Source: Prorocentrum cordatum (lineage: Eukaryota). Taken from it: a stretch of 64,000 nt of DNA. The position numbers were made by a program, and so were the translations under genes. Below the pieces are notes generated by a model that had not been told where the DNA came from, did not search any database, and was given only the letters and a program-made list of their open reading frames with translations. Positions 15,922 to 40,922 of this stretch are shown here, piece by piece; within the stretch, counting starts at the first letter, position 1, and the number at the start of each line of letters is the position of its first letter. The stretch is taken from the NCBI GenBank assembly GCA_963575745.1, contig CAUYUJ010000002.1, forward strand, positions 1,922,001 to 1,986,000, written 5' to 3'.

Positions 15922-15922
<1 letters not shown>

Positions 15923-15968
<46 letters not shown>
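15923..15968. repeat. (TA)n expansion inside the LINE-C RNase H coding region
   Basis: Interrupts ...EHPVY|ITDCEAV... Confidence 0.9.
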
Positions 15969-15970
<2 letters not shown>

Positions 15971-18900: not shown

Positions 18901-21900
18901 CAACGTGGTAATCCAAGATGCGCACAAAGCCGACGCATCCTCGATTGAGCCAGCTCCGAACCTAGCGGCTACGGACGATACAAACACATCAGGAGGTGGA
19001 CAGTCCTTTGGCGGGAAAAGGCCTACAGCAGCGCGTTCTTTGATCCGCGTCTCAGCGGGGATGTGAAAGGCCATTGCAGGCTCGTCATTTCCTGGCGGGG
19101 GCGGCTCTTGAAATGGGCTGGGGGCGGGGGGAATGCATTCGTTGGTGAACGATGCTCGAGCATTGAGAGTGACAAGGCCCCAGGCGATTGACGGCGTGTA
19201 TTGCGGTAACTTAAATATGTGGGGGGGGCCTCTGGGTTGCACGCCCGAGGCCTCTCGTCGGTAGACTGCGACGGTTGAAACTCAGGCGCTGCCGCATTCA
19301 ACCTCGAGACATTGTGAGATGGAGCTGGCCCCCCCACTTCGGTTCCCGCCTCGGGGCGCCTTCCCGTGCCCACGACGGCGCGGCCATGAGATTGCCCACC
19401 CTCGGCAGGTCCCTTATCCGAAAAAAAAACAACTGCTTTGACTCATGCCCCCGTCAGCGTAGGCAGAAGTCACGTGCTCGTTAATGTTCGCTGACGGCGG
19501 CGGCACAGAGCTGGGCTCACAAGCCTTGGGCTCCGCCCCGCTGGGGCCTGCCCCTGCTCGCCGGCTCTCGTTCACGACGGCGTGTCTGAGGATATGCTTG
19601 GCATCGGCAGCTCCCGCAGCTGAGGCGACCGAGCTAGAAAGCTCGCCCGATGGGTCTGAAGATGGAGGTCCGAAATTTGGCTCCATTGCCCATGGGTCTT
19701 CGTCTAGATCTTTATATTCGTCATATATGTCAAGCTCGCGGTCTCGGTCGGGTTCGACCTCGACCCCTGCCTGCTGCACTGGGGACATATCATTAGTCTC
19801 TGGCCACAGATCACCGAAGAGAACCTCGTAGTGCTCTCGGCGTTTCTCAGCAGGCAGCTCTAACTTGATTCGATTCGCCTGCTTCTGTGCCTGCGTCTTG
19901 GAGCCTGGGGCGGCCCTCTGTTGGGGTCGCTCGACTTGCGACAACCTCGCAGGCACGGCTAAACAGCGCGTGATGAGCTGCTTACCTGACGAGCGCATGG
20001 TGATACATATGCCGCAGTGGGTCTTCCACGGCACAGCTCACATGGCCTCCACCCTCGCAATGCATGCTGCCGCTGAGTGGCTCCTGACAATGCAATCTAT
20101 ATGGCTGCCCTGCTGGCCAGCGTTGCAAGTGTATCCGATGGGAGCCTTAACAATCTCGCCATCCACGCGTGTGAGGAAACCTGAACGGCTGAGGGCGTCG
20201 GGTGAAAGATTGTAGTCTCCGACCGCCACCCATGGCAGCTGCAGTGAGGCTAAAAATGCCCCTAGACGACTGAAGCGTAGCATGTTGTCGCCTGTCAGAC
20301 CCACGGATGTGAGTCCATAAAATGTAACTAGGACGGCTGAGTATCCAGACATGTGGATGAGAGCTGCAGTGAGACCATCCGTGACCAACTGGCCATCGGC
20401 TAGAAATTCACTGAGAGCGAGCTGAGGTAGTAACGAGCGGGCCTGCAGATGACCCGTCGCAAGGATCCATTCTCCACCTTCGGTGGCCCTGTCGGCACCC
20501 TGAGCGGTGCAGGCACGGCCAGTCAACCTCGCCCCATTCGCAAAAATCCTGAGCTTAGCTTTGCGCGCCTTTGGCGCCGACTCTTTAGCAAGGTTGGCCC
20601 GCGAGACATGCGTCTCCACAAGGCAATAAAAAATCAAACTGGCGATGCTCACTAGCCTGCAGAGTGAAGCTCCACACCTCCCCCCCCCAATGGCGGTGAC
20701 GTTGCCAAACATGATACGTGTGACCTCATTCCCCCCTGGCCGTGCTCGTGTCGAGTACGGAGCGCCGCTGGACTCTGGCGAAGGAGCCCGCGTTGATGCT
20801 GGCGACGCTGAACTTGAGCAGGTACACGTGGGCCCACATACCGAGGCACCTAGTCACAGCTGGGACTCGTCGATGACGTTGCCAGCTGCCTGAACCTCGC
20901 GCTCCTTCTGCCTGATCGCTTCGAACTTGGCGTTCGAGATGCGCTCGGCCTCCGCTTGGATGTGTGCCTCCCGCGCGGCGCCTGCGACGGCTGTGGCGGC
21001 GGCGGCTGCTGCTCCTTCGCTGGCGCTTCCTGCTGGGGCCGCTGCCCGCGTGGGGGAGGCGCCGCCGCCGCCTGTGCCGTCGGCGCCGTCGTCGGGCTTC
21101 CTCTTTTTTCGCGGCCCTCTGGTGAATGTCTGCCTGCACCTGCTTGGCGCGCTCCATCCACTGAGATACCTGATCTGCTTTGCCTGACAACGTCTTCTGC
21201 GTCTCGACAAGCTCGGTATGCATATTCCTGAGCTCCTCCTTCTCGTGCTCCTCGCACTCGAGGGCCTCGATATCCTGGAAGAGCTGTTCGTCTCAGTGCA
21301 GGCCAAGGGGCTGCCTGTCGTCCTGGGTGTGCTTCTTGCGTCCATTGGCGGCCAGGCCCTCTTGCGATGCGAGGATCTCTGTCGCCTGCTTCCGTGCCAA
21401 CTCCGCCGCCGCAACCTCCAAGGCGATCTTCTTCTCCTTGGTGCGGGCGTTCTCGAGATTCTTCTCTGAACGTGTGACTGCACGAACTGCTTGTTCGCGT
21501 CGATTGCCGGCATCCCGCAGCGCACCATCAGCTTGCTGAAGAGCCTGGAGCACATTGCCCGCCTGCTGCTGCTGAGCAGCCTTGAGCTGTGCCACCTGGT
21601 TCTCGAGACTCTTCTTCAGCTGCGGGTCGGTCGCCGCTGCCAACGTCTGCTGCATGTGCGACAGCACTTCCACGTCCTTGGTGTTCTTCCCTCTTGGAGA
21701 CTGCTTGGGCGTGGACTGGTTGCTGTTGCCATTGCCACCACTCTCCTCGTCGTCACCCATGAACTTAACTGACTTCTTTAGGATGCCTTTCTTCGGTGAT
21801 GGCGAATACACTTTGACTTTCATGCCACATCGATTGCACTTCATCTCCCCCTGCATGAGTTTGTCATTCTATTCAGCTTGTCCGCAACCCTTGCATTGAG

Positions 21901-22029
21901 ACCATTGACGGCTGGACATGGCTAGCCCCGCGGATTCTGTCACCACACTTGCCTGGAGGGGCTGAATATCCAGGGGCAATGGTGTGCCTCAAGCACCTCG
22001 GGCAGGTACCGCGGTGGGCTGGCGAGCTG

Positions 22030-22062
22030 GCCAAAATGGTGCTCGAGCCCAAGCTGCTTGAG
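22030..22062 (-). other. Tandem relict spliced-leader fragments at the LINE-C 5' end
   Basis: Minus strand (CCT)n-CTCAAG-CAGC-TTGGGCTCGAG-CA-CCATTTTGGC. Confidence 0.65.
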
Positions 22063-23143
22063 AGGAGGAGGAGGAGGAGAGGGAGGAGGGAGGAGGGAGG
22101 AGGAGGAGGAGGAGGAGGAGGAGGATGAAGAGGATGAAGAGGAGGAGGAGGAGGAGGAGGAGGAGGAGGAGGAGGAGGAGGAGGAGCAGGAGGAGGGAGC
22201 AGGAGGGGGGAGGGGGGGGGAGGAGGAGGATGCTGATGATGATGATGAGGAGTAGGAGGAGGAGGAGGAGGAGGAGGAGGAGGAAAAGGGAGGAGGGAGG
22301 AGGAAGGAGGGAGGAGGAGGAGGAGGAGGAGGAGGGGAGGAGGAAAAGGGGGAGGAGCAGGAGGAGGAGGAGGAGGAGGAAAAGAAGGAAAACATGGATG
22401 GGAAAAGGAGCAGAAAAGGGAGGAGGAAAAAAAAGGAGGAAAAGGAGGAGGAAAAGGAGGAGGAAAAGGAAGAGGAGGAGCAGGAGCAGGAGGAGGAGGG
22501 GAGGAGGAGGAGGAGGAGGAGGAGGAGGAGGAGGAGGAGGAGGAGGAGGAGGAGGAGGAGGGGGAGGGGGAGGAGGGAGGAGGGAGGAGGGAGGAGGAGG
22601 GAGGAGGGAGGAAGGAGGAAGGAGGAGGGGGTGAGGAGGGAGGAGGGAGGAGGAGGAGGAGAAGGAGGAGGAGGAGGAGGAGGAGAGAAAAGGAGGGGAG
22701 GAAGAGGGAGGAGGAGGGAAAGGAGAAAGAGGAGGAAGAGGGGAGGAGGAGGAGGAGGAGGAGGAGGAAAAGGGTAGGAGGGAGGAGGGGGAGAGGGAGG
22801 AGGAAGGAAGGAGGAGGGGAGGAGGAGGAGGAGGAGGAACATGGGGAGGAGCAGGAGCGGGAGGAGGGAGGAGCAGGAGGAGGAGGAGGAGCAGGAGGAG
22901 GAGGAAAAGGAGGAGAAGGAGGAGGAGGAGGAGGAGGAAGAGGAGAAGGAAGGGGAGGAAGAAGGAGGAGAGGAAAGGAGGAAGAGGAGGAAGAGGAGGA
23001 GAGGAGGAGGAGGAGGAAAAGTTAGGAGGGAGGAGGGAGGAGGAAGGAAGGAGGAGGGAGGAGGAGGAGGGAGAAGGAACATGGGGAGGAGCAGGAGCGG
23101 GAGGAGGAGGAGGAGGAGGAGGAGGAGGAGGAGGAGGAGGAGG
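22063..23143. repeat. ~1.1-kb (GGA)n polypurine tract
   Basis: Direct reading; contains an internal duplication (gaacatggggaggagcaggagcgggagg at ~22837 and ~23077). Confidence 0.95.
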
Positions 23144-24730
23144 GCCATCACATTCTCAATGGGGGGAAGGCAGAGGGTTGACCGACCCGACCCAACCCTC
23201 TACCTTCAGGGGTGACATCCGATTTCCCTTTCCACTGCCCGCCGACCAGCCGTGCTGCGCCTTCCTTGAGGAGCACGGTAGCAGGGAGGCAAGGAAATCG
23301 GGGCCCCCATCCGAGGCCAGAATATCTTCACTATCCTACCGTCTCCTTCGCTGACAGTCGATCCATCTGCATCGCTTGCGCCCCTGCCTAGAGGAGCTCG
23401 TGGCGGAATCGGCTATCCGAGAGGGGATTTCTAAATCACAAACCCTACTACGGCCTAGAGGCTTATGTGAGCATTCTTTTATTATTATTTTTTTTGCTTT
23501 CGGCGGAACGCCCCTCCCCCCCCCCCCCCCCTCCCCCCCCCCTCCCCCCCCCCCGTAGAGAAGTTCCGGGCTGATTTTGGCACCTGCTTCAATCGATCGG
23601 ACGAACTACAGGGGCCGGCGCCCCCCCCCCTCCCCCGGTAGAAACTCGAATCGCTGATGTGTGCAACTGTGCGCATTTTATCGTGCTACTCTTCTGGAAC
23701 CACAACGACAGGGCTCAGGGGCGCCGGACCCGATCGCCAGAAAGCATGCCTCCGGCTGGGCCCTCCCCTGTTATGCCAGCGACGGCCTCGTGGAATCATG
23801 AATAAGTGATCCCTAGCAATTCTGGCACAGGCTTGCCAAATCACGCATAGCCTTGGTGCAGCCCCGCGCAGCCGCTGCGCGATTCCCCCATGGGGGGTCC
23901 CCCCTAGGATTCCCTCATCGGCATCTCCCACGGGATTCCCCACATGGCATTGACCACGGGCCGAGAGCCGGACCCCCCCCCCCTCCCCCCCATGCGCCTA
24001 AAGCCGGAACCCAGAATAAAAAAATGCTCACTATTCGGGAAAACGAACGAGGACCCCAAATAGGAGGAGGAGGAGGAGGAGGAGGAGGAAGAGGAGGAGG
24101 GAGAAGGAGGAGGAAGAGGAGGCCAGGACTGGGACAGGGAGCCAGGATCGGGGCCGGGGCCTGGGCCGGGGCCGGGGCCGGGGTCGGATTGGAGCCGAAG
24201 CTGGGCGGGGGCCGAAACCGGGGCCGAGGCTAGGGCCAGGACCAGAGCAGGGGCCGGGGCCAAGGCCAATGCGTGGTCATGAGCCGGGGCCGGGACCAGG
24301 GCCTGGGCTGGAGCATGAGCCTGGCCCGGGACCAGGAGCCGAGGCCTGGCTTTACGGCCCGTTCCAATATATTTCAAAATAGATGTAAACCAGTTGTAGT
24401 TTACTTGTGCAATACGTGTAGATTAGTTGTAGAACAGTCATATAATAGATTTCCCGAGTCCGTACATTCATATATACAGATATGTCTGATCAACTACTCA
24501 TTGCCTACTTTATTGAACCGGTCATGGCAACCGAGATTGTTCAGTTCTTTGCAGCTTATTTCGATACACGACGTTTGTTCGTACACATATGATAGAATAC
24601 CACTTGATTGCAAGCGCACGCGTCATACACACAGTTGCGGTTTAAACCGAACGATCTTGCTCGCGCGACGTTGCATTGCGAGCGTTGCTCGCTTGCGATT
24701 GAGAGCTTTGCTCGCAAACGACGCGCCACC

Positions 24731-27409: not shown

Positions 27410-27592
27410 CAGGTTCGCGTCGTGTCGACCAGCGGCGACCCTGCCAGCGGCGTTCAACGTTGAACGCCGCTGGCGACCCAGAATCGTTCGATGTGGAACG
27501 ATTTGGACGTTTCGGAAACGGCCGATCGTTCAAGGTTGAACGATCCCCGCGGTGTCAGAGACCAACGCCGGAGTCGGCACGACACGAACTTG
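27410..27592. mobile_element. MITE-like palindromic element, copy 1
   Basis: Termini CAGGTTCGCGTCGTGTCGAC / GTCGGCACGACACGAACTTG are imperfect inverted repeats; second copy at 41661-41848. Confidence 0.75.
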
Positions 27593-28337
27593 ACGTAGGC
27601 GCGCATGGGTTCCCAGATCCTGGTCTACTGTATATGCGCCTTCCTGCTTCAGTAACGGATGGTTGCTTGCTCGAACCGCCTTTAATTCGGGCGGGGCGAG
27701 CCTGGATCTAATGCATCGGCCTTCCTGTTTCATGCTCTTCCTCAGGAGGGGAATAGCACAGACACAACTAAACGCTGATCTCCAGGACAATGCTGTGGGA
27801 AAGCACGGGCCACGGAGGGGAAGACGAGGACCCAGAGCAGATGGGAAAAGATAGGTATCCTGGAACGTGTGCCTATTTCACTGGTGTTGCCCCTGGGCTG
27901 CTTTACGTACCCTCACTTTGGGGCGTCGCCACGCCATGTTATGTCATGCTACGCGTTGATCTTCAACACGATGCTGTGCCATGTAAGTAATGCTATGCCA
28001 TGCTACGACATCCGACTGTGCGAATAGACAAGAGGATCTACGCCATGGTCAGGGTTGGGAGGGAGGGGTAGGACGTTTGATATGACCCGAGCGCACCTAG
28101 CTTGACGTACCCCCTCGCCCTGGATCCCTGCCCCCTTCTCTCGCCCGCCGGGCGCCCACTCCGGGCAGACGTCCCTCCCCGAGCCCCACGGGGCAAGGGG
28201 GTGGGGCGCGGGGCGCTTCTTGGCGCGCCACGGGCGCCCCCCTTCCCCCCCCCCCTCCTCCTCGTCTCCTCCTTTTCCTCCTCCTTCTCCTCCTCCTCCT
28301 CCTCCTCCTCCTCCTCCTCCTCCTCCTCCTCCCTCTC

Positions 28338-28359
28338 TCCGTAGCCATTTTGGCTCAAG
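28338..28359 (+). other. Complete dinoflagellate spliced-leader sequence (genomic, retroposed)
   Basis: TCCGTAGCCATTTTGGCTCAAG, 22/22 to DCCGTAGCCATTTTGGCTCAAG; not followed by a GT donor; preceded by (TCC)n. Confidence 0.95.
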
Positions 28360-31300
28360 TCACCATGTCGCGCTGCGGCCGCATGGAGACCTCTGAGCCG
28401 AGGCCTGACCCAAACTGTTTCCAGCCACCATCAGGGGTGAGTTGGCACCCAAGCGATCTGCCGCTACACTCAGGGGCGTGCGGCCGCCCACTCCTGCTCT
28501 TTGTGCTGGCATTGCAGGCTGCCATCCATATCGCGCTCTCGTGCGCTCCGACCTCCGTCGCCGAGCACCGGCTGGACTTCGGCCTCACTGACGTCGCCGT
28601 CGCTCTTCTCCATAACCCGCTGGACGTCGACCTGCTCGTTCCCCAGCTGCAGCAGCTGCCACGTGGTGGCTCCGCGAAGGCCCTGGAGTCTGGAGCTCTC
28701 GACATCAACTTCCTGAAGCAGAACAGCAGTCAGTCCGACGGCAGCCCACAGTCTCAACCATGTCTTCTTCCAGCGAAGAACGTTCTACCTCCCGAAGTGC
28801 CCCATCTGCTAGCCGAAGAAGGAAAGACCGTCGACGAGAACGTGAACGACTCGACCAAGATCGTGCTGCTTGAGCTCCCCCAGGCCGTGCTGATAAAAAT
28901 GGTCGAGCAGCTGCAGGGCGCGCCGCTCTGGCCTCGCCCGGCGACGCCATCATTGCTACACAGGCAGCGCCACGCTCAGGGCGAGCATCTGGACATGCCG
29001 CTCGCTCTTGCCGCTCCGCAGCTCGTGCACACCATCAGCCGCCCCACTTCGCCATGGACGCTGGAGAAGAAGAAGCTGCTGACCCTGCCCGCGCCGCCGT
29101 CACCGTCAATGCACGCCAATTTCAAGCCGGTGAAGGGACCGAGCCGCCGCCGCAACTCCAAGGTGAAGCTCGTCGCCACGACCCTCTCGCTGCTGCTGAC
29201 CCATGGCGTGCTGGAGGCGCAGCAGCCGCTGGAGGAGCTGCCGCCGTCGGAGCCGCCGCCGATACCGATGCCGCTACGCCAGGCGACCCCGTTCGCCTCC
29301 CAGGTCTGGACCCCGAACTCGACAAAGCTCTTCAAGATCTCATGCAAGCTCAAGTCGCACATGCTGCCAGTACATCCCAAGTTCAAGCCAACGTCCTGCT
29401 CAATGATTCACGCGAAAGCTTTCGCCAACTTCTTGCGCAGCAAGTCCTAGCTACCGAACGACGGGTCGACACCCGTCATGACGTCGTCGCACGCACTCGT
29501 AGAGAACAAGACCGTCAAGCAGAGGAACATAAGAAGATGTGGATGCAGATCGACCAGATGCGAGAGACCCTCGCGCTCGCCGAGGCCCAGGCGCCGATCG
29601 CGGACCTTACCGAGCTCGCTGACTGGGACCGCGAGATCGACCCCACGATCTTCACCATCGGGGCGCAGCGGCCCATCTAGACCGCCGCGCCCACCCCGCC
29701 ATCCTGGAGTGGAACGAGAAGGCGTTCGAGCTTGCCGCCTTCCGCGACCTTGAGCGCGGCGCCACCCTCACGTCGTTCCAGGCGCTCTTCGCGGACGCAG
29801 CGGGGGCCACGCGGCGCGCTTGGCCATCTTTGGGCGGGCTGGCGCCAGGGCGCTCGCCCAGCGCGACGTTTACAATCCACCTCCGAGCCTGGCGCCAAGT
29901 TCCTCAACATCGACGTCGGGCACATCGCGCTCACGGATGCCGCCGAGTTCACCATGAAGTCTGCCGCGCCGCACCGCGACTTCGAGGCTCGGCGGCGCTC
30001 CCTGGCGCGCCGTGCAGCTCAGCTGCCGCGAGGCTCCTTAGGGGCCGCCGATCCCAAGAGGCCCAGGAAGGTCAACCGATCTCCCCTGCGCAGGGCCCCT
30101 CTCTGGGACACCTGGAAGCGCCGTCTGGTTATCCAGGTGATCAAAACCACCGACCCCGAGGGCCTCCCAGGAGTAGCCAGAGAGAGCTGCGCGTTGGTCG
30201 ATGCTCTCCGCGCTCACTGGAGCCACGTCCTCAAGCGCAAGCACGTCGTTGGCATCAAGGTCCAGCAGTGCATTGTCGAGCTCTCGCTCAGCCATCCCAT
30301 CGTTGACGTCGGTGGGCTCATCCAGTCGCACATCAGAGGCTTTCTGCTTCACGCGACTCCATCTGCGTCTGGGCTCGACCTCTTGCCGTACTGCGCCTGG
30401 CTCGCCGCGGGCGCGCCCATTGGCCCGCTGGAGGACCTTGCCTCGCACCTCTGCTTCAACTCCGTCTTCATCCTCGTCCTGAACGGCCCTGACTTCGCGA
30501 TCATGCCAAAGGGCGTCAACCTCATAGGCGTACTCACCACGGACCGCCGCCCTGGGGGCACTCGCCCGCCGCCCCTCAAGTACACCGATGTCAATACCAT
30601 CGCAGGCGAAACCAACATCCTCACCAAATCCGCTGTGGCAGAGCGGACTTATTACATGCAGCAGGGCTTGGTAGTGGGATGCATCTTCACCAAGCACATC
30701 ATCAACCCCGCCGCCGCGATGCGCCGCGCAGGAGTTCATCCAGAGTCCGACAAGCCCAAGCCCGTCTTTACCAGCTTCGAACCCGCGGCTGCGCCCCCGT
30801 CGCTCGGCAGCGTCTGGCCCCTCGCGTCGCTGGAATCCAGGGGCGTCCCTGAGTGCTCGATGAACTTCTCTCGCCAGCTGTACCTCGCCTCCAACTGCTT
30901 CCTCAAAGTTGATAGCGTTCGCCACTTCATGTTTCCGATTGAGACTGGCGCGGCCCAGGGCTGCCCCATGAGCGGCTTTGAATGGGTGATCGCCATGGGC
31001 CCGCTCGTTCACCACTCCGCCTCGTTCATCGCGACAGTCGACGGCGTGCTCATTCACGACAAGAGCTACCTGGGAGATGCTGCGGGCGACATTGGCCTCT
31101 TCACGTTCTCGTTCTCCACGCAGCGCGCTGACTCCGAGCCCTTGGCTGCCGCTCAGGAGCTCGCGCACCCCCACATGAAACATCGCAAGTATGTCGTCGT
31201 CCCGCTTCGGGCGAATACCTTTCAGATAGTGCAACGCGGCTGTGTTGCCACCGTTCGCGTTCACTTCTCATCAGTAGTTTCAATGCTCAGCCATGTCTCG

Positions 31301-32184
31301 CAGTTCGTATTGCTCGATCAGAAGCTTGCCCGCCGTGTACATTTACATGTTTCACAAGTTGCGCCGCCCCCTGCCTAACGCGTTTCGCAAAGTAGTTCTT
31401 ATTGCCATAGTGGAATTGTACCCGCCACAGATGCCAGCTGTTGCCGTCGCCATTCATTCTGCCGCTTTCATGCTCCGAGGGGAATGCGAGCTATTCTCCA
31501 CTGCCGCCCCGTTTCCAGCAGCTGCCGCGGCGGCGGCGAACCACGCAGCTGCCCGTGAAATTCGCGAGGCCCCGAGTGCTGAGCCACCGCGCCGCCCCAG
31601 GCTGCAGCGCGCGGTCGCGCTCACGCTGCAGCGGGCCTCTTTCTCGGTGCCTCTCTCAGTCACGCTCGAGATGCGTATCGCAGCCTGGGGCGTCTCTCAG
31701 CCGCCTCTGCCGCCAGAGGGTGCCGCGCGATGCGCTGCTCCCACGAATTCCATGTGCACCGCTCATCTGTGCTGGCGCTGGGTAGTTCGCAGGTGGACGG
31801 GCGAAGTCCCACTGCATGCACGCTCCCTCGATGATGTCGTGTGTGTTAGGGTGTCCAGCAGCACCCGATTCATTCCCTCTCTTCCTGTCCCGCTCGGTCC
31901 TCCTGTGCCTCCTCCGGTCCCCCATCTTGCCCCTCCTCCGCAGCTCACTTACATCCTGGGGCTTGAGCCCCACCGCGGCCTTTCCGTCTGATCCCGCGAA
32001 CGAGCTTTCGTTATCGTGGTCGAATCAGCGGATTACGCTCGCCATTCTCTTCTTTTACAACATGAAGTACGCCGCGCCGACCCCAGCTACGAGAGCTGCA
32101 GGGTTATGCGCCATCAAAGCATCGCTCTGGAAGTAGACGCGCGGTAGACGGACAGGAGCGGACAGACTTCTTACCCTCGTGCAC
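28338..32184 (+). mobile_element. Non-LTR retrotransposon 'LINE-A' (L1/Tx1-like RT), internally deleted and decayed
   Basis: ORF1-like coiled coil 29054-29680; degenerate RT 30350-31200 (SASGLDLLPYCAW, TRPPPLKYTDVNTIA, QQGLVVG, AAAPPSL, GAAQGCPMSG, AGDIG); C-terminal CVLGC..PDS remnant ~31840; no endonuclease visible; ends at gcac-(TCC)n. Confidence 0.8.
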
Positions 32185-32214
32185 TCCTCCTCCTCCCTCC
32201 CCTCCTCCCTCTCC

Positions 32215-32236
32215 TCCGTAGCCATTTTGGTTCAAC
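32215..32236 (+). other. Near-complete spliced leader at the LINE-B 5' end
   Basis: TCCGTAGCCATTTTGGTTCAAC (20/22), then gccATGG at 32240; preceded by (TCC)n. Confidence 0.9.
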
Positions 32237-34811
32237 GCCATGGCGCCCTCCCGTTGGGCGCACGCCTCTGCGAGGCGCTCTGAGCACCGAGGGAGGTGCT
32301 GGGCAGAGCGTAAAACAAATGTTACCAAGTTCTTTGCGGGCCCGCGCGCTTCGGCATGGCCCCAGAAAAGAAGGACCGGTCCAGCCCAGGCAGCCCCGCC
32401 GCGCCCGTCAGCACGGGCCTCCACGGAGCGGCAGCCCTGGCTGCGCAAGTCCTGCCAGACGGCCACGGGCGCAAGGGTCCGCAACAGCGGCTGGAACCTC
32501 GTGTGTTCGGGCTGCAAGCTGCACAAAGGGGTCGCGTTTGGCGAGGTCGTCGCGGGCGCCCCCAGCAAGCCAGCACCACGGGTCAACAGCCCGCCGCCGA
32601 CCGCCGCCGGGCCCACGGGCGACGGCGCGCCCTGGCAGTATAAGGCGATGGAGGTCAAGATCCGCCAACAGCTGCAGGCCAAGCACGACGGGGACCTCGA
32701 GCTGGCTCGACGCGAGGTCGCTGCGGCCGCGACTGGTGGTGACGCAGCGCCGCCTCTGGCAGCGGCGGCGCCCCCAGCAGACAGAAGACGCCGTCGACCT
32801 CGCGCGCATCAAGAAGCTGGCGGCTCTCATCAAGGCGGGCGAGCACATGGGCGACTCGGAGAAGGACAACGTGCAGCGCTGGAAGACGGAGCTCGAGGCG
32901 CTGCGCACCAAGCGCCAGGAGACGCTCCCCCTCGGCAAGCGCGACCACGCCTGCAACCGCGACGTCAAGCGCTTGGAGGGCCTCTCTGCTTCGATAGGCA
33001 AAGACGTTGAGGCGACCAAGGCCGAGATCGCGCACCTCGAGGTCAAGCTGGCCCTCCAGCAGGAGCAGCAGGCCAAGCATGACAAGGACCTCGCGGCGGC
33101 CCGCGCGCTCCTCGCTGACCTCGGCAAGCAGCGATTCCACGGCGGGAAGGAGTCGGAGGCCATCCCCCCCCTCGAGGACTTCGTGGCGAAGCTCGAGGAC
33201 CATCCCTACGACGAGGGCCTCGACGGCGCCGACGCGCTCGAGATCTGCCAACAGTCCCAGGAGGCCAGGGACCGCCTCCTCCAGAAGGTCTCGAAGGCCA
33301 AGGCGGCGCGCGACCGACGGGCCGAGGCCCGCCGAGCCCCTTGGCCATCAGGTCCCCGAGGACGACGAGAACGCCCGCAGCGCGGCCGAGCGCTGCGCCC
33401 AGGCTCACCAGCCCCCAGCTGTCCATGGAGGCCGCCCGCGCGGCAGGGGACGACGCGGAGGCCCGTGGCCGCGAGGCATTGGCTTGGCAGCCTGCAGGCG
33501 CGGCCGGCGGGCCCCCTGCCCCCGCTGCCCCCGCGGCCGCCAGTGGAGGCCAGCATCATGCCTAACACGGATCAGGTGGACGTCACCGTCCTCTACAGCA
33601 ACATCACGGAGTGGGCCCCCCAGGCCAGGGGCTTCTTGCAGTCCGACCGCGCCATGCGCTTCGACGGCATCGCCTTCGTCGAGCTGCGCCGCGCGGAGAA
33701 ACGCGCCATGTCCATCACCGGGGCAGTCCGCAAGGACGGCTGGAAGGCGACGCACTCCCCTGGGGTCTCCACGGGCAAAGGCGGCGTCACAGGAGGCGAG
33801 CTCGTGGCGGTGCGCGCGCACCTCCAGGCCACCACCTTCGACCATTGGCGCGGCGCCAAGGGCGCTGCGCTCTGCGGCTTCGCCCCCGTGGTCCTGCGCG
33901 CGGCGGCGGGCAACATCGTTGTGGTGGCGCTCTACCTGCGCCCTGCGCTCGGCTTCGGCAAGCGCAACAGGGGCACCCTCGTCGCGCTGGGGGCGCCCCT
34001 CGCGACGCAGAAGGCCCCGTGGATCGTCCTGGGCGACTGGAACCACGAGCCGCGCCAGCTCGCCCAGTCGGGCTGGGTCGCCAAACTGGGCGGCGCGGTC
34101 GCCCTCCCCGACGTCGCCACCACGTGCGACAAAGGGCAGGGCCGCCTGCTGGACTACGGCCTCGCCAAGGACGGCCACCAGCATTTGTTTTCGCTGAAGG
34201 ATGTCCTGAAGGCGCCGTGGGCGACGCACTGCGGGCCCCTGCTCACTTCCGCGGCGCCCGCCAGAGATGGCGGCATCAGGCGCTGGACGCCCCGCGCAGC
34301 CTCCCGGCTACCAAGCGCGCCAAGGCGGCAGCGGACCCCAACAGCAGGAGGTCCAGGCAGAGCCATGCCGCGCTCCAACGGCGGGCGGCGGCCCTGCCGG
34401 CAGGGCTCGGCGCCGACTTCGAGGAGGTGCAGCTGGGCCTCTGCCGCAGCAGCGCGGAGGGCACGCCAGCCAGTGCCCTGCCCAGCCCCCGCCAGCATCC
34501 CGTGGGCCATGGCGCCAGCCCACGGCCAGCCCCACCCCCTGCGGATGGAGGCGGCCCCCTCCCTGCCGCCCAGGCCGACCTCGACCAGTTCCACGATTGC
34601 TTGGCCTCGCCCCAGGTCGAAGGTCACGCGGAGGTTGCGGGTCTACGCAGCCCCCGCCACGCCGGCGCCGTCGCCCGCGCCAACTTCTCGGGCGTCTGGG
34701 ACCCCTTCGACGACCTGGCCGAAGAGCAATTCTTCGAGGCTGTCGAGGGGCACCCGCCAGCAGAACGGCGGGACGAGCCCTACGGGGCTGGCTTCTATAC
34801 TGCGATGGGTT

Positions 34812-35090
34812 CTTCAGTTCAATCACAGGTCGGCCCGCCCGATGAAAGGGGCGCCCTCGCTGGTGGAGAGGGGCCGAGCAGTGCGGCGTCCCAGGCAGGC
34901 TGCACTTACCAGCAGGCCTTCCGTTTCTTCAGTTCATTTACAGGTCGGTCCGCCCGATGAAAGGGGCGCCCTCGCTGGTGGAGAGGGGCCGAGCTGCGCG
35001 ACGTCCCAGGGGTGCTGCATTTACACGAGCAGGCCTCCCATGTCTTCAGCACTGTTGCAGGTCAGCCCGTTTGGTAAAAGGAGCGCCGCC
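34812..35090 (+). repeat. ~116-bp tandem repeat (about 2.4 units) in the LINE-B APE-RT linker
   Basis: cttcagttca..acaggtcgg.ccgcccgatgaaaggggcgccctcgctggtggagaggggccgagc repeated. Confidence 0.85.
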
Positions 35091-38000
35091 ATCGAGCGGC
35101 AGGCCCGGGAGGCCTCCGAGGCCGCCGGGCGCGCTGGGGCGGCCAGCGGGCGCGGGGCGCTCCCGCCCGAGCGCGGGTTGGCCGAGTCGGGCCGGGACTC
35201 GGCCATTTCCCGCGCGGGCGACGCGGCCGAGGCCGTGCGGGGGGCTGCTGGCGCGACGGCTGCCGGGCGCGCGCGCCGGGCCCGCCGGGCGCGCCGCGCG
35301 GGCCCGCGAAAACCCATGTGAAATGCCAAACGCTACGCGCGCGAAGCGTTTGGCATTTCACTAAAGTTTTCGGGGCCTCCCCGGGCAGCCCCGGAGCCAA
35401 AGCGAGGTCGCCCTGGGCCCCGCCAGGGCCGTCGAAGGGGGCGCCGACGCCGCCGCTAGGAGCGCCTCCGGAGCCGCCGGGCGCGCTGGGGCGGCCAGCT
35501 GGCGCGGGGCGCCCCCGCTCGAGCGCGGGCTGGCCGAGTTGGGCCGGGACTCGGCCAATTCCCGCGCGGGCGGCGCGCCCCTCGGCGCGGCGCGGCAGGA
35601 AACCGTCGCAAGGGCAGGCCCCAGGCGACACCCCCGCCGCCCCGTCCCTCGCCGCCGCACCCTGCCGGCACAGCGCTGTGCAGGTTAACTCCGACCTGCT
35701 TTGCCACCCCTTCCTGGACAAGCGCGAGGACCAGGCCCACGCCCTTGCGGAGCTCCACGGCAGCTGGGTCGCCCAGGTCGAGGCCGCCATCCTCCAGCAC
35801 GAGGGCTGCGACAAGGCGAACTGGGCCGCCCGCCAGGGCAGGGCGCGCGGCTTCGGCGCCACCTGGAGGCAGAGGGCGGCTAGCCCAGGCAGGGCCCACC
35901 TCCGCCATCCTGAGGCGGACGCCTGGGCCACCCACAGCGCCAACCTCACGGCCATCCTCGCGCTGGCTGCCAGCGGCAAGGACCACCGACAGATGCTGTG
36001 GCGCCTCGACTTGCACCGCAGCACCCTCGCGGACATCGGCAAGCTCTCGGCCGCCAAGCGCGCGGACCAGCTGGCGGACTACCAGCGCAGGGCCACGGTG
36101 ATCCTCGACCTGCCCCGTCAGGAGCAGGCGGCCGCCAGGCAGCTCGCCCGCGAACTCGCTGGCGACGCCGCGCGGAGGGCCCTCCAGCACGGGCGTCAAG
36201 CCCTTGCGACCTGGGCGGCCAAGGCCACGCTGGGCCAGCTCCACCGCTGGACCAAGGACGGTGACTTGGAGCGGCTCGAAGACCCCACCGACGACGGCAC
36301 CCTGGCGGACCCCGTCGAGGTCATGCTGGCCAAGTCCACCACATGGCAGTAGGTCTGGACCGCCCCCGCCGACCGCGCGAAGGCCATACCAGTAGCTCTG
36401 GCCTCGCTCCGTGTTCTCGCGGCGCAGGAGACCCTCGAGCCCATCGCGGTGGACGGCCTCAACGCAGCCACTGGCAAGCTGGGCCCCCGAAAGGCCCAGG
36501 GCGTCGACAGGCTCAGTCCGCTGGACGTCGAGCGCCTCCCCGACTGCGCCAAGGAGCAGTTCTTGGCCGTCCTCCACCAGGCTGAGGCGCACTGCATGTG
36601 GCTGCCGCAGCTCAACGGCACCCTGGGAGCGGTAGCGGGCAAGCCTGCGGGAGGTCACCGAGTTCTCGCCCTGCTCCCCATGCCAGTGCGCATCTGGGCT
36701 CGCGCGCGCAGTGGCGTCGTCGACCAGTGGACCCAGGGCCTCGAGGACCACTGGGACACGGCCATCAAGGGGTCGTCCGCCCTGCGCGCGACCCTCTACC
36801 GAGCCACTCTAGACGAGACGGCCCAGGGCATGGGCATCCACCACGCCTCGCTGTACGCCGACATCGCGAAGTTCTTCGACTCGCTGGACCTCGCTTGGCT
36901 CATCGAGCGCGCGGTCGACCTCGGCTTCTCCCCCACTGTCCTGGCCCTGGAGGTCGAGGCTTTCCTGGCGCCGCGCTACTTGAAGCGAGGGGCATGGGTC
37001 GACCCCCCGATCTTCGCCAGCCAGTCCAACGTCGCGGATCCTGCAGGCTGCCCAGGCCCAGGCCCATGTCACCACTATCTGGTCGTACATCGACGACACC
37101 GTTGGCGCGCGGAGGGCACCAAGGCCGTCGTCACAGACTCCCTCGCTGTTGCCGGCGCGGCCCTGGCCCAGCAGTGCAGCGACGGCCGCCTCGCGGTCCC
37201 CCCCAAGACCGCGCCCGTTGCGTCCTCGGCTGCCCTTCGCAAGGACATCGGCAGGCGCGTGAGGCAGCGCGGAGTCCCAGGCCACGGGGCCCACCACATG
37301 GTCGACCTCGGGGTGGACGTCGTCACGGGCAACAGGAGGTCCCAGCGCAAGGCCCATACCAGGCACAGGCGCGCGGCCCTCCGTGCCAAGCGGGTGCAGC
37401 GCCTTCGTCGCGCGGCGGCGCGGCTTGGCAAGCTCGGCGCCAGTCTCCATGCCGCTGGCGTGCAGCCGCAGGCGGTGTTCGGGCACGAGGTCTGGGGCAT
37501 CGCGCCCTCCAGACTTACCCTGCTCAGGCGCTCCGCAGCGGCGGCGGCTGCGGGAACGGGCCCTGGGCGATGCCTCGACACAGTCATGGCCCTGCTCTAC
37601 GGCGACAAGGACCCCGTCATCAAGCTGCGCACCCAGCTCGCGCACGAGTGGCTCACGCAGTGGTTCGCCAGGCCAGATTTGCACAAGCGCGTCCTGCGCA
37701 TCTGGCCCCACGTGCACCAATGGCTCCTCAGAGCCAAGACGGGGAGATGGCGCAAAGTCCATGGGCCTGTTGCGGCGGTCATCGCCACGCTCATGGACGC
37801 AGGCTGGCGGCCCTCGTCACCCCACTCCTGGTCGCGCCCCACTGCGCAGGGCGACGAGGAGCGGAGAATCCCGCTCGCTGACCACCACGGCCAGCTCCAG
37901 GTGGACTTCCACAAGTTCTCGGAGCTGCTGGACGACCTCGCCGTGGACCTCGACCGCCTCCGCCGGCAGCGGGCCAGCCAGCGCGCCCACGGCGCTGGCG

Positions 38001-40715
38001 ACGTCTCCCAGGTCAAGCGTGAGCTCGACCACTGCGCCAAGCACGGCCACTGGCAGGAGTGGGCCCTCAACTACCTCGTCGCGGTTGGGGGGCAGTGGCC
38101 ACGGCAGCGGCAGATTGCCGCAGGATGCCAGCGCGACGCAGTCTGCCAGCGATGCTTCGGCGAGGAGGAGACGCTCGAGCACCGCATTTGGCGTTGCCCC
38201 AGCCCGCCTACGACCAGACGGCCCACCTCATCCCCCAGGCACTCAGCGGCAGCGAGGAGTGCCCTGCCCTCTGGCTCAGGGGCGTTGACCCTGCCAGCCG
38301 CACCACCCCGCCGGCACCGACCTGCGACGACGAGCTCCTCGTCCACGTCGGGGCCTCATGGCCCACAGGCGGCATCCAGCCCATCACGATATTCGGCGAC
38401 GCCTCGGGGGGCAAGCACGGCGCGGGCGAGCGAAGGCGTCGGGTTGGCGTCGGACTCGCGGTCATCGAGGCCCGCGGCCCGCAATGGCAGTTGGCAGCAG
38501 GCGCGGTCGCGATTCTCCCTGGGCGGCGGCAGTCGGTCCCGCGCGGGCAGATTTTCGCCATCGCCCGCGCCCTCTAGCAGCATGGAGGCCAACATCCACT
38601 ACGTCACCGACAACATGCCGCTCCTCAACGGGTGGAACGCCCAGCGCTGGCTCAACCTCGGCAAGGGAGCCAACAGCGACCTCTGGGCCCGCATCGGCAG
38701 GTTGCTCCAGGCCCACCCGAACCGCCAGGTGGGCGTCACCTGGACTCCGTCCCACCAAGAGGATAAAAGGGGAACCGATGATCTCACATTTCCTCGCAGC
38801 GGGCAGCTGCTGCGACGACAGGCTCGCCAACCTCGGTGCCGAGGTGGCTGCAGCCTCAGCCAACCGCAGCGCGCCGCACGCGGACCGCTGGGACGTCATC
38901 GCCTCGCAGGTCAGGCGGCGGGCCCGCCGGGCCCTGCTCGACGCGGCGGGCGGCGACCCATGGCTATCGGAGAGGCCCGCGGCGGAGCAGGTGGCCCGCC
39001 CCTCTGCCCTCCAACGGGCCATTGACGACTCGCCGCGCCAGCTTGTCACCGTGGGCCAGGGCAAGTGGAAGTGCCTGCTTGGCCGGCAGCTCTTCCCCGC
39101 GGCCACGCTTCGTGGGGCGGCTGCTTCCGCCTGCGCCGCCACTGAAGCGGACTGGGCCCCGTTCGACCACGTCCGCAAAGTCCCTGCCGGCATGCAGATC
39201 GCCATGGGGGCGGGCGTGGCCCACGCCTCCCACCGCCTCTACGAGTGGCCAGCCCACAACCTCTACTTCTGCGGCGACTGCGGGGCTCACGGCGCAGCAA
39301 TGGGCATGGGGCTGCGAGGCGAGCGCAAGGGCGAGACCACCCGCAAGACGGACGAGGCCCTCAGGAGGATCGCCAAGGGCGTCCACCCGTCGCACCAGGG
39401 GCCGCCCAAGCCCGTTATCGAGGCCAACGCAATTTCCGCCACGATCGCCCACGCGGTCGGCGGCGGATTGGCCCCCGCGGGCCCCGCGATCCCCGAGGAC
39501 CTTTCCGAGGCCGGTGCCACGGAGCACCAGCTCGAGGCGGTCATCGGCGTCCCCCATGGCCAGGCGCTCCAGGCGGCCCAGCGCCCCTCCCGCAAGCAGG
39601 CTCGGAAGCCAGACGGGCCCCAGCCAACGGTCGGCGGAGGCGGCGCGCGCCCTCGGACCCCGAGGCGGGGCAAGGGGAGCCGCCGCCGCGTTGGCCACGG
39701 CGGCCACCCCGCGCGCCCCCGGCGGGCGGTCCGGGCGGGCCCCGCAGGCCCAGGAGGCTTCCGAGGCCGCCGGGCGTGCTGGGGCGGCCAGCTGGCGCGG
39801 GGCGCTCCCGCCCGAGCGCGGGCTGGCCGAGTCGGGCCGGGGCTCGGCCATTTCCCGCGGGGGCGACGCGGCCGAGGTCGCCAGGGCCGCCGAAGGGGGC
39901 GCCGACGCCGCCGACGGGAGCGCCTCCGGAGCCGCCGGGCGTGCTGGGGCGGCCAGCTGGCGCGGGGCGCCCCCGCTCGAGCGCGGGCTGGCCGAGTAGG
40001 GCTAGGACTCGACCAATTCCCGCGCGGGCGGCGCGCCCCTCGGCGCGGCAGAGGCCGAGCAGGGGGCCGCTGGCGCGGCGGCTGCTGGGGCTCCTGGGGG
40101 GCCGCCAGGGGGCACAGGCCAGCGGCGCCGCAGCCAGCCTAGCCAGACGACGCCGAACCGTGACGGCCAGACCGACGTCACCGTGCAGGCGACAGGCGGC
40201 CCCCTCGGTCCTCGCCTCTGGCTGCCTGACTACACGTCCCCGCTCTCGGGTGCGGTCACGGCGTACTGCGCGGCCAGCCACCCTGCCGAGCTGGACCCTA
40301 ACCAGACCCACCGGCAGCGCGCTGCACCGACATCACCCCGCCCGCCGCTTGGCCCCGCGGAGGCACAGCGGGAGGAAGGCCCCACGGCCTGGGGGGCAGG
40401 CGAGCGCACCCTGGCCCAGAAGATCGCTCACCTCCTGAGCGCGGTGCGAGCTGGCAGTGGCGAGGGGAGGGCGGACACGCCACGGGCGTCGCCGGAGCGG
40501 GCGAGCGCGGCGCGCGACCCGTGTGTGCCTGGCGGGGTATAGGTTAACCGCCCCGTCCCTCGACTTCTGGTGCCCTGGACCTCGTGAGCCTGCTCATGGG
40601 GGCCAGGGGCGCCGTGGAAGCTGCGCCCACTCCTCCTCCTCCTCCTCCTCCCCCTCCTCCTTCCTCCTCTCACCCCCTCCCCTCCCTCCCCTGCAGATCT
40701 TGCGGCGCCACCAGA

Positions 40716-40922
40716 CATGCAACGTCACGAAAACGCCTCCCCCGGAGCCCTGACCTCATTCTGCCGCGTCCTGCTCCGAGCTGGACCGATATGTGAGGGT
40801 CTCGGGGCTCGTGTTCGTGACACCAGTCATGCAACATCACGAAAGTGCATCCCCGGAGCCCTGACCTCATTTTGCCGCGTCATGTTCCAAGCTGGACCGA
40901 TATGTGAGGGTCTCGGGGCTCG
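40716..40922. repeat. Tandem duplication, ~112-bp period
   Basis: catgcaac.tcacgaaa...ccccggagccctgacctcatt...gctggaccgatatgtgagggtctcggggctcg twice. Confidence 0.9.

What the first reader, a model, noticed from the sequence alone, without database searches (positions are those of the whole stretch)
28338..40630. LINE retrotransposons whose 5' end is the dinoflagellate spliced leader
Seen: LINE-A begins exactly with a perfect 22-nt SL and LINE-B with a 20/22 SL followed directly by gccATGG of ORF1; LINE-C (minus) begins with tandem SL relics. Two different LINE families (L1/Tx1-like A; RNase H-bearing B/C) share this. Known: SL relics mark retroposed mRNAs in dinoflagellates, and SLACS/CZAR/NeSL elements insert into SL RNA genes in other taxa. 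Inference: here the elements are themselves trans-spliced and the mature SL-capped RNA is the transposition intermediate, so they could dispense with an internal promoter and be cut out of read-through transcripts by trans-splicing. No SL-RNA intron is adjacent, which argues against SL-gene targeting.
Basis: partly seen in the sequence, partly recalled or inferred. Interest (0 to 1): 0.9.

Follow-up and report, generated by a model that had tools for sequence, protein, structure and literature searches.

The report
Dinoflagellate LINEs headed by spliced leader
Three jumping genes (LINE retrotransposons) in this Prorocentrum-like dinoflagellate DNA begin with the short leader that the cell splices onto its messenger RNAs, so the spliced RNA itself seems to be what is copied back into the genome.

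Summary
The core observation holds. A perfect 22-nt DinoSL lies at 28338-28359 and a 20/22 copy at 32215-32236, with none expected by chance. Each is followed within 3-5 nt by an ATG and preceded by a (CCT)n tract.

The anatomy needs correcting. "LINE-B" and "LINE-C" are one plus-strand element of about 8.5 kb (32215-40692). It carries a zinc-finger/coiled-coil ORF1, an APE endonuclease, RT, RNase H and a (CCT)n tail. No minus-strand LINE lies inside the given coordinates. A third LINE, on the minus strand at 22062-14993, does start with degenerate tandem SL relics.

All three elements sit between (CCT)n tracts. None is followed by SL-RNA intron sequence. LINEs from other samples show the same head: L002, L003, L017 and L020.

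Best reading (about 0.75): LINE mRNAs are trans-spliced like host mRNAs, and the SL-bearing mRNA is the template for target-primed reverse transcription into (CCT)n. Promoter independence is inferred, not shown. One rival, for element A only, is that its SL is a 35-nt target-site duplication of B's SL.

I found no paper stating this. Song et al. 2017 noted RT functions among SL-relic genes. Verdict: new variant of a known kind, interest about 0.68.

The parts
28237..28337 (+). (CCT)n tract directly 5' of element A; ends ...CCTCCTCCCTCTC
28338..28359 (+). Perfect 22-nt DinoSL, first bases of element A
   Evidence: 0 mismatches; 0 matches in 100 shuffles
28365..29450 (+). Element A, first open frame (361 aa from ATG 5 nt after the SL). 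No family match; only 3 short fragments (77-82 aa) found as relatives
29300..29680 (+). Element A, coiled-coil-like stretch in another frame. It runs straight into the post-endonuclease linker, so the APE domain of the family is missing in this copy
29834..31270 (+). Element A, reverse-transcriptase region. 29834-30895 is 54% identical to P0009 aa 336-689. In-frame stop at 29678-29680
32185..32214 (+). CCT-rich 3' tail of element A (or tail plus 13-nt target duplication); ends CCTCCTCCCTCTCC and abuts the SL of B
32215..32236 (+). 20/22 DinoSL, first bases of element B/C
32240..33557 (+). Element B/C ORF1-like part: Cys-rich N-terminus (frame of 32240), frameshift, then coiled coil from about 32784
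33558..34280 (+). Element B/C APE-type endonuclease (GDWN, LDY motifs)
   Evidence: Exo_endo_phos E 0.018, below cut-off; tblastn P0005 76% identity, P0006/P0007 E 2e-15
34615..35603 (+). Extra stretch absent from relative P0005: tandem repeats of about 115-165 nt, plus a 188-nt piece (35233-35420) with a 77-nt palindrome at 35301-35377
35603..38200 (+). Element B/C linker and reverse transcriptase (YIDD at 37086) and CCHC knuckle (from 38144). Frameshifts near 37040 and 37105. RT motif-B region deleted relative to P0001
38311..38790 (+). Element B/C RNase H domain, broken by a frame change and a stop at 38575
   Evidence: (family profile against RNase H1, E 1.8e-4)
38791..40629 (+). Element B/C C-terminal Cys/His-rich region, low-complexity repeats and 3' UTR
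40630..40692 (+). (CCT)n-rich 3' tail of element B/C
22063..23144 (-). About 1.1 kb (CCT)n (read on the minus strand) directly 5' of element D
22025..22062 (-). 5' end of element D: CTCAAG (last 6 nt of the SL), then a 10/15 relic, CA, and a relic with the exact 10-nt core CCATTTTGGC
   Evidence: (score 30 against SL+2 relics; 0 of 300 shuffles reach it)
14993..22024 (-). Body of element D. ORF1 ATG at 21919 (zinc-ribbon-like, coiled coil), APE 20853-20041, RT 18013-15973, C-terminal part to 15153, (CCT)n-rich tail 15071-14993. Several stops

Best explanation
These are APE-type non-LTR retrotransposons (LINEs) of a Prorocentrum cordatum-like dinoflagellate. Their mRNAs receive the 22-nt spliced leader by trans-splicing, as the host's nuclear mRNAs do. 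The element's own proteins then copy that mature, SL-bearing mRNA into DNA by target-primed reverse transcription. A full-length new copy therefore starts with the SL.

Integration goes into (CCT)n microsatellites. This leaves (CCT)n on both sides and builds head-to-tail arrays: A lies in front of B/C.

The 5' joints sit where the SL resembles the target. They fall at TCC (SL positions 1-3) in A and B, and at CTC (positions 17-19) in D and L002. This suggests microhomology-guided joining.

Shown: the anatomy, the SL heads, the flanks, and recurrence in other samples. Inferred: the trans-splicing itself, the use of the elements' own proteins, and the idea that a new copy needs no promoter because read-through RNA can be re-spliced. 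In that scheme the (CCT)n tract would act as polypyrimidine tract and an AG inside the old SL as acceptor.
For: 1. SL at the exact boundary between (CCT)n and the element in A (22/22) and B (20/22), with 0 expected by chance. ATG follows 5 and 3 nt later.

2. A third LINE (D), found only by protein similarity, starts at the (CCT)n boundary with CTCAAG plus two degenerate relics. Its score against SL+2 relics is 30, and 0 of 300 shuffles reach it.

3. Four loci were fetched by an APE alignment from metagenome contigs with no reference to the SL. The 2 that contain the 5' region both carry SL-derived sequence. L002 reads (CCT)n-CCA-CTCAAG-ATTTGGGCCCGAG..., and its 5' end aligns to D's (score 28, 0 of 300 shuffles). 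L003 reads GTAGG-TTTTGGCTCAAG, a 12-nt exact SL 3' end about 100 nt before the ORF1 ATG (0 of 300 shuffles). The other 2 (L001, L004) begin inside ORF1.

4. There are 21 exact 21-nt SL sites in prokaryote-bin contigs. Seven are SL RNA genes (SL+GTAC...). Of the other 14, two head clear LINEs. L017 has the SL, a 5' UTR resembling D's, an ORF1 with a RanBP2 zinc ribbon (E 1.4e-7), and an open ORF2 of more than 2260 aa with Exo_endo_phos 5.1e-9 and RVT_1 4.5e-11. L020 has the SL, a 286-aa ORF1, and an ORF2 with Exo_endo_phos 7.1e-8.

5. No SL intron lies on any flank, and the endonuclease is APE-type.

6. The tails are (CCT)n, not poly(A), in all 3 window elements. L002 also follows (CCT)n.

7. 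Weak: laid contigs of other runs join 21-22 nt of SL to inner LINE sites. These are X3 32234->33592, X3 32235->35507 and X5 32235->35561. The short sides mean they could come from repeats or other organisms.
Against: There is no direct RNA evidence. No listed run is on record as RNA, and all laid data are contigs.

All three window copies are decayed, with stops, frameshifts and deletions. A lacks its endonuclease, so none can be shown to be active.

The SL remnants of D, L002 and L003 are partial.

Because the target is itself (CCT)n, no target-site duplication can be read to fix the element ends.

The samples are small: 3 informative SL-blind loci and 2 SL-selected LINEs.

For A, the 13 nt before the SL plus the SL itself recur in front of B, which also fits a 35-nt target-site duplication.

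One SL-linked candidate (L012) has the SL between two 19-nt repeats in a possibly chimeric contig and does not fit the simple model.
Confidence: 0.75

Rival explanations
1. For element A only: A has no SL of its own. It inserted just behind B's SL, and the 13 nt CCTCCTCCCTCTC plus the 22-nt SL were duplicated as a target-site duplication of about 35 nt, so the 'SL of A' is a copy of B's SL.
For: CCTCCTCCCTCTC followed by the SL stands in front of both the A body (28325-28359) and the B body (32201-32236). The motif occurs only 4 times in the window.
Against: It would leave A as the only LINE seen here without its own SL remnant, starting 5 nt before its ATG. The two copies differ by 2 substitutions and 1 extra C, all on the B side, while A's SL is perfect. 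That fits better with a younger, separately acquired SL. A 13-nt duplication with A's own SL explains the same letters. The rival does not touch B, D, L002, L003, L017 or L020.
Confidence: 0.15
2. The copies are passive processed pseudogenes. LINE mRNAs, trans-spliced like any mRNA, were copied back by some other reverse transcriptase (for instance of LTR elements), exactly as ordinary dinoflagellate retrogenes are. The SL would then say nothing about the LINEs' own cycle.
For: SL relics mark more than 20% of genes in some dinoflagellates, and the enzyme responsible is unknown (passages of PMC5585692, PMC6050394 and PMC11453091). All window copies are decayed.
Against: Three LINE families end in (CCT)n rather than poly(A) and lie in (CCT)n. 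That is typical of tail- or target-specific priming by a LINE's own machinery. All 3 SL-type sites in this 64-kb window head LINEs, and none heads a cellular gene. L017 looks intact over more than 2260 codons.
Confidence: 0.1
3. Site-specific insertion into SL RNA genes or SL sequences, as in SLACS/CZAR/CRE or NeSL-1. The SL would be target DNA, not part of the element.
For: A sits immediately next to B's SL. Such elements exist in other SL-using taxa (recalled, not from a call).
Against: The full 22-nt SL is on the 5' side only. Upstream of it is (CCT)n or another microsatellite, not SL-gene flank. No GTAC... intron follows the SLs or the 3' tails, whereas 7 of 7 SL genes fetched elsewhere have it. 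The endonuclease is APE-type and N-terminal.
Confidence: 0.03
4. Template switching at the end of reverse transcription from the LINE RNA onto free SL RNA or another capped RNA, giving chimeric 5' ends as in U6-L1 chimeras.
For: LINE reverse transcriptases can switch templates (recalled, not from a call).
Against: Copying unspliced SL RNA would bring its intron between the SL and the LINE. Only the exon is present, joined at a fixed point a few nt before the ATG. Relic structures are inherited within a family (D and L002).
Confidence: 0.02

Closest known systems
Dinoflagellate processed retrogenes with DinoSL relics (Slamovits and Keeling 2008, recalled; Song et al. 2017, PMC5585692, passages read)
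   Same: A DNA-encoded SL lies at the 5' end of a retro-copied unit. Tandem truncated relics (CCATTTTGGCTCAAG) arise from repeated rounds, as in D and L002. Song et al. list 'RNA-dependent DNA replication' among functions enriched in SL-relic genes, so RT genes with relics were seen.
   Different: Here the retro-copied unit is the retrotransposon itself (ORF1-APE-RT-RNase H), with a (CCT)n tail and a (CCT)n target. The passages I read treat RT enrichment as a sign of activity, not as LINEs whose own 5' end is the SL. A 2019 preprint (10.1101/783902, passages) even calls retroposition and retrotransposition independent.
SL-gene-specific non-LTR elements: SLACS, CZAR, CRE1/2 (trypanosomatids) and NeSL-1 (C. 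elegans); recalled
   Same: LINE-like elements physically next to spliced-leader sequence.
   Different: Those elements cut inside the SL exon of SL RNA genes with a restriction-like endonuclease, so they are flanked by the two parts of the gene. The elements here have an APE endonuclease, the whole SL on the 5' side only, and no SL intron nearby.
Trypanosomatid L1Tc/ingi with the Pr77 internal promoter (PMC1874656 and PMC8190864, abstracts in the listing)
   Same: LINEs living in an organism where mRNAs are trans-spliced.
   Different: By those abstracts, Pr77 drives abundant unspliced transcripts, so the element brings its own promoter and avoids the SL. The dinoflagellate elements carry the SL as their first bases.
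Microsatellite-targeting LINEs of insects and fish (Waldo, Mino, Kibi, Koshi, Dong); recalled
   Same: The same simple repeat lies on both flanks, the tail is made of that repeat, and arrays are head to tail.
   Different: Different repeat, (CCT)n. Clade relationship not tested. No SL in those hosts.
Microhomology at 5' junctions of human L1 insertions; recalled
   Same: The joint between target and the 5' end of the cDNA falls where a few bases match.
   Different: Here the matching bases are inside the SL: TCC at positions 1-3 and CTC at positions 17-19. This is my inference from 4 junctions.

Membership tests
APE-type non-LTR retrotransposon (LINE) | Reverse transcriptase domain with the YxDD motif | tested here: met
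   YIDD at 37086. RVT_1 scores only E 0.17 on the decayed window copy, but relatives reach 8.3e-11 (P0008) and 4.5e-11 (L017). tblastn of P0006/P0007 to the window gives E 7e-58 and 8.5e-64. Element A is 54% identical to P0009.
APE-type non-LTR retrotransposon (LINE) | Apurinic-type endonuclease N-terminal to the RT | tested here: met
   B/C 33558-34280: Exo_endo_phos E 0.018, below cut-off, and homologous to the APE parts of P0005/P0006/P0007. D 20853-20041. L017 5.1e-9 and L020 7.1e-8, both above cut-off. Not met in copy A, which lacks the domain its relative P0009 has.
APE-type non-LTR retrotransposon (LINE) | No LTRs; simple-repeat or A-rich 3' tail; target-site duplication | tested here: inconclusive
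   (CCT)n tails on all 3 elements and no terminal repeats. Duplications cannot be read because the target is the same repeat. A possible 13-nt or 35-nt duplication flanks A.
SL-gene-specific elements (CRE clade / NeSL) | Insertion inside an SL RNA gene: SL exon split, SL intron on the 3' flank | tested here: not met
   Whole SL on the 5' side only. The letters after the SLs and after the tails are not GTAC..., unlike 7 of 7 SL genes in L010, L011, L016, L022 and L023.
SL-gene-specific elements (CRE clade / NeSL) | Restriction-like endonuclease C-terminal to the RT, and no APE | tested here: not met
   An APE domain is present N-terminally. No restriction-like domain was reported by Pfam for the relatives. 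The C-terminal Cys/His region was not examined further.
DinoSL-relic retrogenes | DNA-encoded SL or relic directly upstream of the coding unit | tested here: met
DinoSL-relic retrogenes | The copied unit is a cellular gene that depends on foreign RT/endonuclease | tested here: not met
   The units encode their own ORF1, APE, RT and RNase H.
   No reference set of LINE clades is held. The only evidence is that P0009 matches human L1 ORF2p weakly (E 0.0055).
Microsatellite-specific LINEs | The same microsatellite on both flanks of independent copies | tested here: met
   (CCT)n lies 5' and 3' of A, B/C and D, and 5' of L002. L017 lies behind (AG)n instead. L003 and L020 have no repeat upstream.

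The most novel reading that the evidence does not exclude
Dinoflagellate LINEs are promoter-less elements that depend on trans-splicing. They land in polypyrimidine microsatellites such as (CCT)n. That tract, together with an AG inside the retained SL, forms a ready-made trans-splice acceptor, so any read-through transcript regenerates a capped, translatable, transposition-competent mRNA. The same elements would be the long-sought machinery that makes the thousands of SL-relic retrogenes of dinoflagellates, which would explain why SL-bearing retrocopies from several species sit directly behind microsatellites.
Probability: 0.3. Interest if true: 0.85.

Novelty: new variant of a known kind. Interest (0 to 1): 0.68.

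Why it matters
Two open points in dinoflagellate genome biology become testable.

First, which retroelement supplies the reverse transcriptase and endonuclease for the massive retroposition of SL-bearing mRNAs? Reviews I read in passages say this is unknown (PMC6050394; PMC5585692; PMC12014239). LINEs that themselves carry SL heads, with a recognisable tail and target, are concrete candidates. Their (CCT)n signature can be looked for at the ends of ordinary retrogenes.

Second, how does a LINE survive without carrying a promoter? An element whose first bases are the host's spliced leader could rely on read-through transcription plus trans-splicing. That would be a different solution from the internal promoters of L1 or the Pr77 of trypanosomatid elements.

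It also gives annotators a simple mark for full-length LINE copies, and a way to count rounds of retrotransposition from relics.

Tried and rejected
- Pfam on crude start-to-stop ORFs of the region found nothing at E <= 0.01.
- No RNA holder was listed for the stretch. X3 is only guessed to be RNA, so I draw nothing on expression from it.
- The exact-pattern search for the SL 3' half plus the first bases of A or B in metagenome contigs gave 0 hits.
- The RT/RNase H alignment A1 in viral contigs matched 19 pattern stretches, none a relative.
I then searched that collection with the plain SL motif.
- L001 and L004 begin inside ORF1 and are uninformative about the 5' end.
- A's first ORF against 1.84 billion representatives gave only 3 hits of 77-82 aa. 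So I could not show from relatives that A's 5' 1.5 kb belongs to the LINE family; that rests on contiguity and on similar contig cover in X1.
- L012 (SL followed 6.9 kb later by an RVT_1 match of 25.6 bits, below cut-off) was not counted. The SL lies between two 19-nt repeats, an SL-less copy of the same stretch lies 8.6 kb downstream, and the contig carries bacterial genes elsewhere.
- A1 found nothing in that genome.
- The protein atlas could not be used.
- Earlier findings of this scan held nothing relevant in 4 look-ups.
- PMC2993343 is not held.
- RT clade assignment was not attempted for lack of reference sequences.
- The 119 SL-bearing loci of the viral collection contain no LINE by tblastn, so they add nothing to the LINE question.

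Full report
**What is there**

The window is GC-rich, 0.55-0.74 per 2 kb. Its best protein matches are named Prorocentrum cordatum: P0001 at 81% identity and P0005 at 88%. That species has a 59.7% G+C genome (PMC10666404, passages). No whole genome is held.

The dinoflagellate spliced leader (DinoSL) occurs twice. One copy is perfect, at 28338-28359. The other matches 20/22, at 32215-32236. Both are on the + strand, and none was found in 100 shuffles. The 15-nt relic finds nothing more. Each SL is followed almost at once by an ATG (28365 and 32240). Each is preceded by a (CCT)n-type tract that ends CCTCCTCCCTCTC.

**Anatomy, corrected**

The stretch 32215-40692 is one + strand element, not two.
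- P0005 aligns to 33334-34615 (endonuclease) and then to 35603-36745.
- P0001 aligns to 35600-39515.
- More distant single-ORF relatives (P0006, P0007; 28-29% identity) cover the endonuclease, the RT and the RNase H in order.

Its parts, in order:
- a Cys-rich N-terminus and coiled coil;
- an APE endonuclease (33558-34280);
- about 1 kb of extra repeats holding a palindromic insert (34615-35603);
- the RT (YIDD at 37086);
- a CCHC knuckle;
- RNase H (38311-38790);
- a Cys/His-rich C-terminus;
- a (CCT)n tail (40630-40692).

Pfam support on this decayed copy is weak: RVT_1 E 0.17 and Exo_endo_phos E 0.018. Relatives pass the curated cut-offs (P0008, L017, L020). A family profile hits RNase H1 at E 1.8e-4. 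The copy has frameshifts, a stop and a deletion in the RT.

Element A (28338-32214) belongs to another family. Its RT region is 54% identical to P0009, an APE+RT protein. However, P0009's first 335 residues, which include the endonuclease, have no counterpart here. A coiled-coil stretch runs directly into the post-endonuclease linker. A ends in a 30-nt CCT-rich tail that touches B's SL.

A third element, D, lies on the minus strand from 22062 to 14993. It has a zinc-ribbon-like ORF1 from 21919, then APE, RT, a C-terminal part and a (CCT)n tail at 15071-14993. About 1.1 kb of (CCT)n lies upstream of it. Its first bases are CTCAAG, the last six of the SL. A 10/15 relic follows, then CA, then a relic with the exact core CCATTTTGGC. 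Against a model of SL plus two relics it scores 30, and the best of 300 shuffles scores 19.

**Is the SL head general?**

I could not run a census of the genome, so I used public collections.

(a) Search blind to the SL. An alignment of APE domains pulled 4 loci from metagenome contigs.
- Two of them (L001, L004) start inside ORF1 and say nothing.
- L002 begins (CCT)n-CCA-CTCAAG-ATTTGGGCCCGAG-CACCA..., then a zinc-ribbon ORF1 and an APE related to D's. Its 5' end aligns with D's (score 28, 0 of 300 shuffles).
- L003 has ...GTAGG-TTTTGGCTCAAG about 100 nt before its ORF1 ATG.
- Together with D, that makes 3 of 3 informative LINEs with SL-derived heads.

(b) Search by the SL. The exact 21-nt SL occurs at 21 sites in contigs of prokaryote bins.
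- Seven sites are SL RNA genes, each continuing GTAC....
- Of the other 14, L017 and L020 are LINEs.
- L017 reads (AG)n, SL, a 5' UTR resembling D's (score 23; 2 of 300 shuffles reach it), an ORF1 with a RanBP2 zinc ribbon (E 1.4e-7), and an open ORF2 of more than 2260 codons with APE (5.1e-9) and RVT_1 (4.5e-11).
- L020 reads SL, 96 nt, a 286-aa ORF1, then an ORF2 with APE (7.1e-8).
- L012 is a doubtful third case and is not counted.

(c) Contigs of four other runs laid on 27500-41200 cover both elements with many diverged pieces, so these are multi-copy families. Three contigs join 21-22 nt of SL to inner LINE sites near the start of the endonuclease and of the RT part. Their short sides make this weak evidence.

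**How it most likely works**

The simplest account is that LINE mRNAs are trans-spliced like other nuclear mRNAs, and that the SL-bearing mRNA is reverse-transcribed at the target. The shared, degenerate tandem relics of D and L002 are what repeated cycles would leave: copy, transcribe, splice at the AG inside the old SL. This matches the model for retrogenes (passages of PMC7245778 and PMC12014239).

The (CCT)n on both sides of all three window elements, and in front of L002, points to priming on (CCT)n targets. That would also explain the head-to-tail order.

The four joints with (CCT)n lie at the only two places where the SL resembles the repeat: TCC at positions 1-3 (A, B) and CTC at positions 17-19 (D, L002). 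I read this as microhomology at the 5' joint. This is inference from 4 junctions.

The following is also inference only. A new copy behind a polypyrimidine tract, with AGs inside its SL, would be a good trans-splice acceptor for read-through RNA, and so would need no promoter.

**Rivals**

- SL-gene targeting is disfavoured. There is no intron on any flank, the whole SL is on one side only, and the endonuclease is APE-type.
- Template switching onto SL RNA would bring the SL intron along. It is absent.
- Passive copying of LINE mRNA by another enzyme cannot be excluded. It fits poorly with the shared non-poly(A) tail and target.
- For A alone, the 13 nt plus SL found in front of both A and B also fit a 35-nt target-site duplication. 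I give this 0.15. A's SL is perfect while all three differences lie on B's side, and every other LINE examined has its own SL remnant.

**Comparison with what is known**

SL relics on retrogenes are well known. Song et al. 2017 even list 'RNA-dependent DNA replication' among functions enriched in SL-relic genes, and read it as a sign of activity (PMC5585692, passages). [quoted passage not shown]

In six full-text searches, and in the passages I read from 12 papers, I found no statement that dinoflagellate LINEs begin with the SL or use trans-splicing in their cycle. Supplements were not opened, and subscription papers are not covered. Repbase notes are likewise outside what I searched.

I therefore rate this a new variant of a known kind. 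A specialist may find it natural in an organism where mRNAs are trans-spliced. Even so, it gives concrete candidates for the unknown retroposition machinery and a distinct answer to the LINE promoter problem.

**Side observation**

The same SL motif occurs at 136 distinct sites in 119 loci of the viral collection. Almost all are AT-rich giant-virus bins (114 loci have G+C below 0.35).
- At 129 of 135 sites the SL is preceded by A, giving the full 22-mer.
- At 123 of 133 sites it follows an upstream stretch that is at least 80% A+T and often conserved.
- The median distance to the next ATG is 49 nt.
- None continues with an SL intron.

This looks like virus genes that encode the host leader at their transcript starts. 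It is unrelated to the LINEs, and the listing showed no paper on it by title.

Noticed in passing
L033 onward (viral contigs; e.g. L045 6103-6123, L139 5835): The exact DinoSL is encoded at 136 distinct sites in 119 loci of giant-virus bins. 114 loci have G+C below 0.35. At 129 of 135 sites an A precedes it, completing the 22-mer. At 123 of 133 sites it follows an upstream stretch that is at least 80% A+T, often the recurring AATCAATTTTTTATTTTTTATTTTTAAATATAAATTTTA. The median distance to the next ATG is 49 nt, and none continues with GTA. This looks like giant viruses of dinoflagellates writing the host's spliced leader into the start of their own transcripts. No paper on it appeared by title in one search.
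   Followed up: partly
L005, L008, L017, L019 (genome contigs): A microsatellite stands directly 5' of the SL in 4 of 12 non-SL-gene SL sites that have at least 20 nt of upstream sequence: GT/GC-rich, (TCA)n, (AG)n and (GACA)n. This echoes the (CCT)n in the window. Dinoflagellate retrocopies in general may land in simple repeats.
   Followed up: no
L012 / L031 (G001:C67, about 88-96 kb): An exact SL lies between two copies of the 19-nt TTTTGCTTGCAGGCGTGAG. An SL-less copy of the same stretch of about 85 nt lies 8.6 kb downstream, behind an RT-like ORF, and the 3' UTR is repeated after it. The same 209-kb contig carries plainly bacterial genes at 136-154 kb, so it may be a chimeric assembly.
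   Followed up: partly
window 27411-27600 and 41661-41845: A palindrome-rich repeat flanks the LINE cluster on both sides (88% identity). In laid contigs the bins 27500-28413 reach word depths of 2181-2605 (X1) and 17943-42231 (X3), against 0-188 over the LINE bins. Other copies run on at 28104 into CCT-rich sequence. It is a very high-copy element of unknown kind.
   Followed up: no
window 35233-35420: A piece of about 188 nt with a 77-nt palindrome (35301-35377) interrupts a stretch that is contiguous at 39744-40049. It is possibly a small inverted-repeat element inserted into LINE B/C.
   Followed up: no
window 28325, 32201 (+); 22089, 22803 (-): The motif CCTCCTCCCTCTC occurs 4 times in the window, and 3 of those lie within 30 nt upstream of the three LINE 5' junctions. 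It could be a target-site duplication, a preferred cleavage context, or a common variant of the repeat.
   Followed up: partly
L010, L011, L016, L022, L023 (genome contigs): Bins labelled as bacteria hold dinoflagellate SL RNA genes (SL followed by a GTAC... intron and a T-run). This is eukaryote DNA in prokaryote bins.
   Followed up: no
window 40709-40811 and 40821-40922: A tandem duplicate of about 103 nt (90% identity) lies directly behind the tail of LINE B/C.
   Followed up: no
L015 (genome contigs), contig end: An SL followed by two perfect 15-nt relics (CCATTTTGGCTCAAG twice). This is a textbook multi-round retrocopy head.
   Followed up: no
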